Assembly: GCF_013315695.1 (NCBI RefSeq)
Contig: NZ_CP054353.1
Length of the DNA stretch: 64,000 bases
Reading direction: 5' to 3' (one strand)
DNA from: Escherichia coli
GTDB lineage: Bacteria > Pseudomonadota > Gammaproteobacteria > Enterobacterales > Enterobacteriaceae
A model generated the notes under the pieces. That model made no database searches. It worked only from the letters and a program-made list of their open reading frames with translations, and was not told where the DNA came from. The position numbers were made by a program, and so were the translations under genes. Of this stretch, positions 21,783 through 23,463 are shown piece after piece. The first letter of the stretch is position 1. The number at the start of each line of letters is the position of its first letter.

Positions 21783-21998
21783 ATGTACCAGATGGAAAAA
21801 ATCACAACAGGTGTGTCATACACCACGTCAGCGGTGGGAACGGGCTACTGGTTCCTGCAGTTGCTGGACAGGGTTTCCCCGTCTCAGTGGGCGGCAATAG
21901 GCGTGCTGGGGAGTCTGCTGTTTGGGCTGCTGACATATCTGACTAACCTGTATTTCAAAATCAGAGAGGACCGGCGTAAGGCGGCGCGGGGAGAGTAA
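21783..21998 (+). CDS. S: Pinholin, phage 21 S21-like, 71 aa, with a dual-start motif (M1/M4)
   Basis: [71 protein letters not shown] aligns with remembered S21. Confidence 0.88.
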
Positions 21999-22002
21999 AG
22001 TG

Positions 22003-22893
22003 ATGAATAAAAAATATGAACTGGTTGTTAAGGGGATAAATAATTACGGGGATAAGGTTACTGTTACTGTGAAGCCGGAAGGTGACGGGCAAGCGTCGCT
22101 GTTGTTGCCAGATGTGGCGATTAGTCTTGACCGTACTGAAGGTGCCACGCTGGAGTTTTACGAAGCTGAGGCGAAAAAGCAGGCGAAGCAGTTTTTCATG
22201 GATGTTGCTGCCGGGTTATGTGAATGGAACGAACCGTTGCCGGAAAAGCGCCCCGTAATTTTAGAGGCGCAGGATGTGTTGATAACCTACAAAGGAAAGC
22301 TACCGGGAAGAATTACTTGTTCTCTGAAGATGCCGCCGTCAACACTGCGGTCAGAAAAAGATGATGTTGAATCACGTATTGAAAAACTGGAGAGCTACGT
22401 CGTTGAGCTGAATAAGAAATGGTCGATATTGGTGCCTTCTGGCGATGAAAAGCAGTTTGCTGCGTTTGACGATTATTGTCGGAAAGTGATGAGCAGAAAT
22501 CTCGCAGAGTGTTTCAGTATTCATAATGATAATTTCAGTGAGCTGGAATGGGAGTGTAACCGGCCATCCTTTGTTGTATCCGGTGATGCTGGGAAAATAA
22601 CCATCTCAGAAAATGGGAAAGTAACACCTCCATCGCACCAGCACAGTGAGGAGCTCATTGAATTTGCCATTGATTACCTGAAGAACAATAAAAAGCAGGG
22701 GCTGATGAAGCGCGTTGGCCGTTGCATGGGATATCTTCAGGTAGCCGCTGAGATTGAAGCGCTGGCCAGTGGTGCTGATAAGGATGCAATTGTGCGGGAG
22801 GCTCTTCTTCGTGATTTTAATACTCCACCCTTTAAAAAAGTGCCGGCTTACTGGCTTCATCCGGGGCTGACTTATCTTAAAGTGCGTATTTAG
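22003..22893 (+). CDS. Hypothetical soluble protein, 296 aa, inserted between holin and endolysin
   Basis: ORF track entry. It starts 4 nt after the holin stop, has no predicted TM segment, and I recognise no family. Confidence 0.65.
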   Translation: MNKKYELVVKGINNYGDKVTVTVKPEGDGQASLLLPDVAISLDRTEGATLEFYEAEAKKQAKQFFMDVAAGLCEWNEPLPEKRPVILEAQDVLITYKGKLPGRITCSLKMPPSTLRSEKDDVESRIEKLESYVVELNKKWSILVPSGDEKQFAAFDDYCRKVMSRNLAECFSIHNDNFSELEWECNRPSFVVSGDAGKITISENGKVTPPSHQHSEELIEFAIDYLKNNKKQGLMKRVGRCMGYLQVAAEIEALASGADKDAIVREALLRDFNTPPFKKVPAYWLHPGLTYLKVRI

Positions 22894-22929
22894 TGGGCCA
22901 GGGACAGCGGCTGAATATTTAATATATCC

Positions 22930-23463
22930 ATGAACACCAAAATCAAATACGGCCTGTCGGCTGCCGTTCTGGCGCTGATTGCCGCTGGTGCGCCTGCGCC
23001 TGACATTCTCGACCAGTTTCTGGATGAAAAGGAAGGCAACCACACCACAGCATACCGTGATGGTGCAGGTATCTGGACCATCTGCCGTGGTGCCATCATG
23101 GTGGATGGCAAACCTGTCGTTCCGGGCATGAAGTTGTCGAAGGAAAAATGCGACCAGGTTAACGCCATTGAGCGTGATAAAGCGCTGGCGTGGGTGGAGA
23201 AAAACATCAGAGTGCCGCTGACCGAACCCCAGAAAGCGGGGATCGCGTCATTCTGTCCGTACAACATTGGTCCCGGTAAGTGTTTCCCGTCGACGTTTTA
23301 TAAACGAATTAATGCAGGTGATCGCAGGGGAGCGTGTGAGGCGATTCGCTGGTGGATTAAGGACGGTGGCAGAGACTGCCGTATCCGCTCAAACAACTGT
23401 TATGGTCAGGTATCCCGTCGTGACCAGGAGAGCGCGCTGGCGTGCTGGGGAATCGACAGATAA
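22930..23463 (+). CDS. R: SAR endolysin (T4-lysozyme-like, GH24), 177 aa
   Basis: The Gly/Ala-rich N-terminal signal-anchor-release segment is GLSAAVLALIAAGA. The catalytic spacing E-x8-D-x5-T lies in EGNHTTAYRDGAGIWT. Confidence 0.88.
   Translation: MNTKIKYGLSAAVLALIAAGAPAPDILDQFLDEKEGNHTTAYRDGAGIWTICRGAIMVDGKPVVPGMKLSKEKCDQVNAIERDKALAWVEKNIRVPLTEPQKAGIASFCPYNIGPGKCFPSTFYKRINAGDRRGACEAIRWWIKDGGRDCRIRSNNCYGQVSRRDQESALACWGIDR

What the first reader, a model, noticed from the sequence alone, without database searches (positions are those of the whole stretch)
21783..23463. A 296-aa gene of unknown function is wedged between the pinholin and the SAR endolysin
In phage 21-type lysis cassettes, S21 (pinholin) and R21 (SAR endolysin) are adjacent (established knowledge). 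Here the S21-like holin ends at 21998 and the SAR endolysin starts at 22930. A tightly coupled ORF (22003-22893) fills the space. It is predicted soluble, has no TM segment and belongs to no family I recognise. Its position guarantees co-expression with the lysis effectors at the end of the lytic cycle. It may therefore be a lysis-timing or regulatory factor, a late-acting anti-defence or host-takeover protein, or an abortive-infection-type cargo gene using the late operon.
Basis: partly seen in the sequence, partly recalled or inferred. Interest (0 to 1): 0.62.

Follow-up and report, generated by a model that had tools for sequence, protein, structure and literature searches.

The report
Long YdfR-family gene in lysis cassette
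The gene between the holin and the endolysin is real, but it is the full-length form of a catalogued and very common E. coli prophage gene family (YdfR/DUF1327) that sits in the same slot in E. coli K-12, so it is an ordinary, optional accessory gene whose function is still unknown.

Summary
An S21-type pinholin (21783-21998), a 296-aa soluble ORF (22003-22893) and a SAR endolysin (22930-23463) lie head to tail. The ORF starts 4 nt after the holin stop.

The ORF does belong to a known family. Residues 1-100 match Pfam DUF1327 (E 2.7e-40) and the whole protein matches PHROG 1085. It is 100% identical to RefSeq "YdfR family protein" genes. E. coli K-12 Qin has the same layout, essQ-ydfR-rrrQ.

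The slot is polymorphic. It can be empty (933W) or hold short YdfR, long YdfR, or a form that lacks DUF1327. Enterobacterial relatives outside E. coli sit upstream of the holin instead.

I found a conserved, uncurated C-terminal domain (residues 181-296). It has 16 invariant residues, dN/dS of about 0.2, a confident AF2 model and no structural relatives. Distant homologues keep both domains, so the 103-aa K-12 YdfR looks like a remnant.

The only functional lead is a 2026 paper showing that K-12 YdfR residues 1-72 bind the RNase E catalytic half and co-purify with RNA.

My best guess, at low confidence, is a late-expressed cytoplasmic accessory factor acting on host RNA metabolism rather than part of the lysis machinery. 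Interest is modest.

The parts
21783..21998 (+). S21-type class II holin (pinholin), 71 aa, with a Met1/Met4 dual start
   Evidence: PF04971 E 9e-33; phrog_9876 and phrog_20, both annotated holin
21990..22005 (+). Coupling junction: GGAGAG Shine-Dalgarno, holin stop TAA, 4-nt spacer, ydfR ATG
   Evidence: Read from the sequence. In 933W the R start codon occupies this exact position.
22003..22893 (+). Long-form YdfR-family gene, 296 aa, soluble, stop codon included
   Evidence: Full-length match to phrog_1085 (E 1.5e-189). 100% identical to RefSeq 'YdfR family protein' in ATCC 25922 and others.
22003..22230 (+). N-terminal DUF1327 domain (residues 1-76), three strands plus one helix
   Evidence: PF07041 E 2.7e-40. 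46% identical to K-12 YdfR over 74 aa. AF2 pLDDT is about 70-88. dN/dS is about 0.69.
22231..22542 (+). Linker (residues 77-116) and helical, coiled-coil-like segment (residues 117-180). This is the site of the 33-aa length polymorphism that separates the 296-aa and 329-aa alleles.
   Evidence: Alignments. AF2 predicts helices 114-143 and 149-169 at low confidence.
22543..22890 (+). Conserved C-terminal domain (residues 181-296) with no Pfam model. It has 16 invariant residues, including H214, G239, R240, Q246, K278, W284, P287, G288 and Y291.
   Evidence: Alignments. AF2 pLDDT 88.9, pTM 0.82. dN/dS 0.21. No structural relative.
22894..22929 (+). 36-nt AT-rich spacer before R with no recognisable Shine-Dalgarno
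   Evidence: Read from the sequence. Conserved among YdfR-bearing cassettes. Less structured than shuffled sequence, z +1.5.
22930..23463 (+). SAR endolysin, 177 aa, starting MNTKIKYGLS
   Evidence: PF00959 E 3e-24; phrog_7, annotated endolysin. E35/D44/T50 triad read from the translation.
23960..24418 (+). Rz i-spanin, with the embedded Rz1 o-spanin at 24171-24356. This is the end of the lysis cassette.
   Evidence: PF03245 E 2e-47; phrog_13. Rz1 ORF with a lipobox.

Best explanation
The ORF is the full-length, two-domain form of the YdfR (DUF1327) family.

SHOWN
- It is a non-essential, modular accessory gene of enterobacterial lambdoid prophages.
- It occupies a recombination-prone slot in or next to the lysis cassette.
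- By its anatomy it is read as part of the Q-dependent late transcript, translationally coupled to the pinholin.

INFERRED
- The product is a cytoplasmic protein made only at the end of the lytic cycle.
- Its fast-evolving N-terminal DUF1327 domain contacts the catalytic half of host RNase E and/or RNA, as reported for K-12 YdfR residues 1-72.
- A helical segment tethers, and perhaps oligomerises, this domain to a conserved C-terminal domain of unknown activity.
- Together they modulate host RNA turnover or phage late-mRNA stability.
- It does not take part in membrane permeabilisation or murein degradation.

The 103-aa K-12 YdfR and the roughly 114-aa Stx-phage versions are 3'-truncated remnants of this long form.

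Confidence differs by layer. Identity and anatomy are at or above 0.95. The RNA/RNase E mechanism is only about 0.3.
For: Identity
- PF07041 E 2.7e-40 and a full-length phrog_1085 match.
- 100% identical RefSeq 'YdfR family protein'.
- Same slot as K-12 essQ-ydfR-rrrQ.

Late, coupled expression
- 4-nt gap after the holin stop, sharing the Shine-Dalgarno that R uses in 933W.
- No + strand promoter-like site in 18500-25500.

Optional and modular
- The slot is empty in about 60% of a spread sample of 369 phage records. It holds short YdfR in about 20% and the long form in 3.
- Among 80 IMG/VR loci there are 29 with the 296-aa form, 10 with the 329-aa form, 28 with a 185-aa form lacking DUF1327, and 13 with shorter or displaced ORFs.
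- A split, swapped arrangement exists in which a 213-aa C-domain gene is followed by a 75-aa DUF1327 gene.

Long form ancestral
- Homologues at about 30% identity keep the N-domain, helical segment and C-domain.
- BP-4795 ORF47 equals residues 1-112.

Functional gene
- C-domain dN/dS is 0.21.
- AF2 pLDDT is 88.9.

Cytoplasmic
- No TM segment.

RNase E/RNA lead
- PMC13232886 reports that YdfR(1-72) was recovered in a two-hybrid screen and gives signals with RNase E 1-597.
- Strep-YdfR co-purifies Rne1-598-FLAG and DNase-resistant nucleic acid.
Against: - The RNase E data are for K-12 YdfR, which is only 46% identical to this N-domain. The N-domain evolves fast (dN/dS about 0.69), so the partner may differ.
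- The co-purification came from lysate without nuclease treatment, so it may be RNA-bridged.
- Overproducing YdfR changed few transcripts (PMC13232886).
- The 185-aa form lacks DUF1327 altogether yet keeps the slot. The conserved activity may therefore lie in the C-domain, for which there is no clue.
- No similarity to known phage RNase E modulators was seen.
- The consistent placement beside lysis genes is not explained by an RNA-metabolism role.
Confidence: 0.35

Rival explanations
1. It is a cytoplasmic regulator of lysis timing. It would bind the charged cytoplasmic C-terminal tail of the pinholin, or control translation of the downstream SAR endolysin, and so tune when lysis fires.
For: - It is translationally coupled to S and takes over the Shine-Dalgarno and start position that R uses in 933W. 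R is left with an AT-rich leader lacking a Shine-Dalgarno.
- Family members always lie next to lysis genes. They sit between S and R in E. coli (80 of 80 loci). They sit upstream of the holin in Salmonella and other enterobacterial phages, separated from it by one opposite-strand ORF or a second small DUF1327-like gene.
- The N-terminus of R co-varies with the presence of ydfR.
Against: - It has no TM segment or signal peptide. Known antiholins and endolysin regulators are membrane or periplasmic proteins.
- The slot is empty in most closely related cassettes, such as 933W and VT2-Sakai, so the gene is not needed for lysis.
- The neighbouring holin family differs (PF04971 versus PF16080).
- Either domain can be absent.
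Confidence: 0.2
2. It is a moron-type cargo gene that benefits the lysogen, for example through superinfection exclusion or abortive infection, and merely sits in the late operon.
For: - It shows presence/absence polymorphism.
- Its GC content is 44-48%, against 53-56% in the flanking lysis genes.
- Neighbouring slots hold obvious cargo: toxin-antitoxin pairs, ant, a methylase and antisense ORFs.
- The N-domain evolves fast.
Against: - No promoter of its own is predicted, and it is tightly coupled to the holin.
- ydfR gave almost no RNA-seq reads in growing K-12 (PMC13232886).
- There is no PADLOC hit and no toxin-like or enzyme-like fold.
Confidence: 0.15
3. It is a late-acting counter-defence factor that neutralises a host system triggered by late events such as capsid, terminase or lysis proteins. 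The N-domain would be the variable specificity module.
For: - The N-domain has dN/dS of about 0.69 and two deeply divergent allele types, alongside a conserved C-domain.
- The domain architecture is modular.
- It is expressed late.
Against: - There is no similarity to any known anti-defence protein.
- Most known anti-defence genes are early genes.
- Nothing links the family to a defence system.
Confidence: 0.12
4. It is a decaying, functionless remnant kept only by linkage to the lysis genes.
For: - Many truncated or split forms exist (114, 183, 185 and 268 aa).
- 13 of 80 loci have a shorter or displaced ORF, most consistent with disruption.
- PGAP flags the gene as a pseudogene in ATCC 25922.
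Against: - The ORF here is intact.
- C-domain dN/dS is 0.21.
- 16 residues are invariant down to about 30% identity.
- The AF2 fold is confident.
- The PGAP pseudogene call results from comparing the gene with the short namesake.
Confidence: 0.05

Closest known systems
E. coli K-12 YdfR (b1555, P76160), Qin cryptic prophage; Pfam DUF1327 (PF07041)
   Same: The N-terminal domain is homologous (46% identity over 74 aa; PF07041 E 2.7e-40). The position is identical: 4 nt after an S21-type holin (essQ) and directly before the lysozyme gene (rrrQ).
   Different: K-12 YdfR is 103 aa. It lacks the linker, the helical segment and the conserved C-terminal domain. Its tail (residues 75-103) is unrelated and overlaps the rrrQ start.
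Stx-phage short YdfR (for example BP-4795 ORF47, 114 aa; phrog_406)
   Same: It is 85% identical to residues 1-112 and sits at the same S junction.
   Different: It ends after the linker. A different 50-nt spacer precedes R.
Long alleles in Stx phages (Stx2_95 Stx2a95_290, 329 aa; Stx2-converting phage 86)
   Same: The architecture and slot are the same, with 78% identity overall.
   Different: A 33-aa insertion lies in the helical segment.
Phage-encoded RNase E modulators (T4 Srd, T7 gp0.7, phiKZ Dip), named from my own knowledge
   Same: The possible target (RNase E) is shared, if the K-12 YdfR interaction (PMC13232886) carries over to this protein.
   Different: No sequence or structural similarity was found. 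Srd and gp0.7 are early genes, whereas this one is late. No effect on RNase E activity has been shown.
Accessory lysis regulators (S21-71 antiholin, P1 LydB, T4 RI, Mu releasin gp25), named from my own knowledge
   Same: They are also encoded inside lysis cassettes and co-expressed with the holin and endolysin.
   Different: Those are membrane or periplasmic proteins. This one has no TM segment or signal sequence and no homology to them.

Membership tests
YdfR / DUF1327 (PF07041) | Match to the Pfam model above its gathering score (25 bits) | tested here: met
   136.9 bits, E 2.7e-40, residues 1-100 against model positions 1-88 of 93
YdfR / DUF1327 (PF07041) | Encoded in a lambdoid prophage between a class II holin and the lysozyme gene, as in K-12 Qin | tested here: met
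   Same order and the same 4-nt junction as essQ-ydfR-rrrQ
YdfR / DUF1327 (PF07041) | Small single-domain protein of about 100-115 aa | tested here: not met
   296 aa, with an extra linker, helical segment and C-terminal domain. The long form appears ancestral.
PHROG 1085 (unknown function) | End-to-end match to the 296-position profile | tested here: met
   E 1.5e-189, residues 1-296 against positions 1-296
RNase E N-terminal-domain binding proteins (YdfR as reported in PMC13232886) | Physical binding to RNase E residues 1-597 and co-purification of RNA | not testable with these tools
   Only homology to the interacting fragment, K-12 residues 1-72 at 46% identity, could be shown.
Antiholins and endolysin regulators of lysis cassettes | Transmembrane segment or export signal that places the protein with the holin or the SAR endolysin | tested here: not met
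   Maximum 19-residue Kyte-Doolittle mean is 0.75, and there is no hydrophobic N-terminus.
Antiholins and endolysin regulators of lysis cassettes | Effect on lysis timing | not testable with these tools
   This needs lysis curves for cassettes with and without the ORF.
Known anti-phage defence proteins (PADLOC-DB) | Significant match to a defence-system model | tested here: not met
   The only hit is PbeC at E 0.049 and 9.9 bits. Three distant homologues give none.
Moron (autonomous cargo gene in a phage late region) | Presence/absence polymorphism and atypical base composition | tested here: met
   The slot is empty in 933W and most Stx phages. GC is 0.44-0.48 against 0.53-0.56 in the flanks.
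Moron (autonomous cargo gene in a phage late region) | Own promoter and terminator allowing expression in the lysogen | tested here: not met
   No + strand promoter-like site in 18500-25500. Site counts do not exceed those in shuffled sequence. The start lies 4 nt after the holin stop.

The most novel reading that the evidence does not exclude
The conserved C-terminal domain (residues 181-296) is a previously undescribed protein fold or family that carries the real activity of this gene family. DUF1327 is an exchangeable, fast-evolving targeting module. Together they form a late-expressed, lysis-cassette-linked effector that reprograms host RNase E and RNA decay at the end of the lytic cycle, or alternatively sets lysis timing from the cytoplasmic side. 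That would be a new class of accessory function built into lambdoid lysis cassettes, including those of Stx phages.
Probability: 0.2. Interest if true: 0.6.

Novelty: already known. Interest (0 to 1): 0.3.

Why it matters
About half of complete E. coli genomes carry YdfR-related sequence (2702 of 5426). 776 genomes carry the C-terminal domain. The carriers include Stx-converting phages and reference strains such as ATCC 25922.

A gene this common, wired directly to the holin, has no known function. Three practical points come out of this work:

1. The family's namesake, the 103-aa K-12 YdfR, is probably a truncated remnant. Functional studies should use the long form.
2. The conserved C-terminal domain has no Pfam model. 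In RefSeq it is left unannotated or flagged as a pseudogene.
3. The 2026 RNase E interaction gives a concrete hypothesis to test.

If the protein alters RNA decay or lysis timing in Stx phages, it could affect toxin release. That is speculation.

Tried and rejected
- Structure, full length: the AF2 model was poor (pLDDT 52.8). Foldseek of that model against PDB gave nothing below E 0.1.
- Sequence searches against PDB, using the single sequence and profiles of both domains, found nothing significant.
- NCBIfam gave no hit. PADLOC gave no meaningful hit.
- Pfam on 14 C-domain sequences at E up to 10 gave only scattered noise. DUF6200 appeared in 3 of 14, with a best E of 0.006.
- Internal duplication: both domains start with three strands and a helix, so I tested whether they are related. 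hhalign gave a probability of 0.1%, so I rejected this.
- Conserved antisense partner gene: the opposite-strand ORFs next to homologues are unrelated to one another (DUF1883, a record-annotated 'DUF1823', or no family), so I rejected this. The 145-aa antisense ORF at 22606-23043 has no family.
- Species-representative genomes yielded only 3 loci. IMG/VR searches with distant homologues P0180 and P0166 found nothing.
- Literature: one paper mentions DUF1327 in passing. No paper holds both 'ydfR' and 'holin'. A Stx-phage comparative genomics paper does not discuss the slot.

Full report
OBSERVATION

The region reads as described. An S21-type class II holin lies at 21783-21998 (71 aa, Met1/Met4 dual start; PF04971 E 9e-33). 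A 296-aa ORF lies at 22003-22893. A 177-aa lysozyme lies at 22930-23463 (PF00959 E 3e-24). The lysozyme has an Ala/Gly-rich SAR-like N-terminus and the E35-x8-D44-x5-T50 triad.

The ORF's ATG is 4 nt after the holin stop and is preceded by GGAGAG (21990-21995). A 36-nt AT-rich spacer with no recognisable Shine-Dalgarno separates the ORF from R. The product has no hydrophobic segment (maximum 19-residue Kyte-Doolittle mean 0.75), a pI of 5.95 and a mass of 33 kDa. The cassette continues with two small membrane ORFs and Rz/Rz1.

WHAT THE GENE IS

The ORF is not an orphan.

- Residues 1-100 match Pfam DUF1327 (PF07041, 136.9 bits, E 2.7e-40).
- The whole protein matches PHROG 1085 end to end (E 1.5e-189).
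- The DNA is 100% identical to genes annotated 'YdfR family protein' in E. coli ATCC 25922 and many other complete genomes.
- The surrounding prophage is 98% identical to the ATCC 25922 prophage over 10.7 kb.

E. coli K-12's cryptic prophage Qin has the same layout, essQ (holin) - ydfR - rrrQ (lysozyme), with the same 4-nt junction. K-12 YdfR is 46% identical to residues 1-74.

Among 5426 complete E. coli genomes:

- 2702 carry sequence similar to some part of the gene.
- 495 carry at least 80% of it.
- 776 carry the C-terminal part (951 places).
- The holin itself occurs at 8932 places in 2449 genomes.

THE SLOT IS POLYMORPHIC

The phage collection holds 369 records with this S/R pair, mostly Stx phages. 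Only 3 contain the long gene. In an evenly spaced sample of 60 records:

- About 60% have S and R directly adjacent. These include 933W, VT2-Sakai and Min27.
- About 20% have a short insert of roughly 100-115 aa. BP-4795 ORF47 is an example and is annotated YdfR family.
- A few have other combinations.

In 933W the R start codon lies exactly where the ydfR start lies here, behind the same GGAGAG. In every YdfR-bearing cassette R starts MN(T/A)KI(K/R)YGLS behind an AT-rich leader. In 933W it starts MSRKLRYGLS.

In 80 IMG/VR loci with close relatives of the C-terminal domain, the gene is always followed by R. It is preceded by S wherever the upstream sequence is present. The ORF classes are:

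- 296 aa: 29 loci
- 329 aa: 10 loci
- 185 aa, lacking DUF1327: 28 loci
- Shorter or displaced ORFs, most consistent with disruption: 13 loci

A further E. coli arrangement encodes the two modules separately and in swapped order. The order is holin, then a 213-aa gene (helical segment plus C-domain), then a 75-aa DUF1327 gene, then an antisense ORF, then R.

ARCHITECTURE AND EVOLUTION

An exhaustive HMMER search of 1.84 billion cluster representatives found only 74 relatives. The family is narrow. Named sources are E. coli, Shigella and Salmonella.

The most distant relatives are about 30% identical. They keep a divergent DUF1327-like N-domain, a helical segment and the C-terminal domain.

The C-terminal domain (residues 181-296) has 16 invariant positions: H214, I223, L226, G239, R240, L245, Q246, A248, A249, P276, K278, W284, P287, G288, Y291 and L292. 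The conserved motif reads KRxGRCMGxLQVAAEIE...FDNPPFK...W..PG..YL.

Short forms share their 5' end with the long form and stop early. BP-4795 ORF47 equals residues 1-112 at 85% identity. phrog_2091 covers residues 1-176. I therefore infer that the long form is ancestral and that the 103-aa K-12 namesake is a remnant.

Pairwise Nei-Gojobori estimates on distinct alleles give these dN/dS values:

| Region | dN/dS |
|---|---|
| C-domain (27 alleles) | 0.21 |
| N-domain (8 alleles) | 0.69 |
| Holin S | 0.08 |
| Endolysin R | 0.07 |

The sample is small and recombination is ignored, so these values are rough.

In Salmonella prophages and two other enterobacterial phage contigs, homologues lie in the late operon upstream of a different holin family (PF16080). 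The typical order is Q, toxin-antitoxin pair, DUF4406, homologue, antisense ORF, holin, lysozyme, Rz. The conserved association is therefore with the start of the late operon next to the lysis genes, not with the S-R junction as such.

STRUCTURE

The full-length AF2 model is poor (mean pLDDT 52.8). It does show a confident N-domain of three strands plus a helix, and long low-confidence helices at 114-169.

The C-domain alone, modelled with 14 diverse sequences, gives pLDDT 88.9 and pTM 0.82. It is a three-stranded hairpin followed by four helices.

FUNCTION

The only experimental lead is PMC13232886 (RNA Biol 2026), which reports the following:

- The first 72 residues of K-12 YdfR were pulled out of a two-hybrid library with RNase G as bait.
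- That fragment gives stronger signals with RNase E constructs.
- Full-length YdfR is positive only with Rne1-597.
- Strep-YdfR co-purifies FLAG-Rne1-598 and DNase-resistant nucleic acid from lysate.
- Overproduction changes few transcripts.
- ydfR gave almost no RNA-seq reads in growing cells.

The co-purification was not nuclease-controlled, so the link could be RNA-bridged.

Taken together with the anatomy here, my best-supported reading is a cytoplasmic accessory factor that acts on RNA or RNase E. The relevant anatomy is late coupled expression with no own promoter in the scan, a soluble protein and an optional gene. I hold this mechanism at about 0.3. Identity and anatomy are near certain.

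The rivals are:

- A cytoplasmic lysis-timing regulator. Coupling and neighbourhood favour it. The empty slot in most relatives, the lack of membrane targeting and the variable holin partner count against it.
- Lysogen-benefiting cargo or defence. Low GC and polymorphism favour it. There is no promoter, no expression in K-12 and no PADLOC hit.
- A late counter-defence factor. The fast-evolving N-domain fits this.
- A decaying remnant. Purifying selection on the C-domain and its confident fold argue against this.

COMPARISON AND NOVELTY

The gene is a catalogued and widespread family member, and an identical protein is already in RefSeq. The finding is therefore already known as an entity and routine as an observation. 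Three points in this analysis are not in the annotations:

1. The conserved C-terminal domain has no Pfam model.
2. The long form appears ancestral.
3. PGAP mislabels the intact long gene as a C-terminally truncated pseudogene in ATCC 25922 and leaves the C-domain unannotated elsewhere.

VERDICT

Interest is 0.3.

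Noticed in passing
window 23464-23959: The R-Rz gap is a second cargo slot. A strong hairpin with a T-run (23554-23586) follows R. Two small single-TM ORFs with good Shine-Dalgarno sequences come next: 23620-23802 (60 aa, phrog_1115) and 23817-23948 (43 aa, phrog_4906). Both have unknown function. The same gap holds ant in 933W and an N6/N4 DNA methylase in another E. coli prophage. Small membrane proteins next to a SAR endolysin could be lysis accessories.
   Followed up: partly
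window 24732-25055 (+): A 107-aa predicted lipoprotein (LAVGC lipobox) consists of a TonB C-terminal domain (TIGR01352, 47.5 bits). It lies just after Rz/Rz1, where lambda carries bor. It could interfere with TonB-dependent uptake or with phage or colicin entry.
   Followed up: partly
window 22894-22960, and locus L088 1761-1800: The endolysin N-terminus and its leader co-vary with slot occupancy. In all YdfR-bearing cassettes R starts MNTKIKYGLS behind an AT-rich leader with no Shine-Dalgarno. In 933W it starts MSRKLRYGLS directly behind the holin's GGAGAG. The leader here is less structured than shuffled sequence (z +1.5).
   Followed up: partly
locus L002 6001-6891 (E. coli ATCC 25922), and hits H109, H110: This is a RefSeq annotation artefact. 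The intact 891-nt gene is annotated only over its first 336 nt, as a pseudogene 'YdfR family protein, missing C-terminus'. The part that encodes the C-domain carries no feature in two of the three other genomes listed.
   Followed up: yes
window 19113-21089 (+): A 658-aa ORF occupies the position of the yjhS / 9-O-acetyl-N-acetylneuraminic acid deacetylase gene of Stx phages, upstream of the holin. Its closest relatives carry DUF1737, SASA and DUF6645. It is intact here, but its counterpart is frameshifted in ATCC 25922.
   Followed up: no
window 18532-18867 (-): A 111-aa opposite-strand ORF corresponds to the gene annotated as anti-adapter protein IraM in the ATCC 25922 prophage. It lies between the antiterminator region and the late genes. 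It is a likely lysogen-expressed cargo gene.
   Followed up: no
loci L091, L093, L097 (Salmonella and other enterobacterial prophages): Where the family sits upstream of the holin, the stretch between Q and the lysis genes also carries toxin-antitoxin pairs (ParE/HTH, HicA/HicB) and a DUF4406 gene.
   Followed up: no
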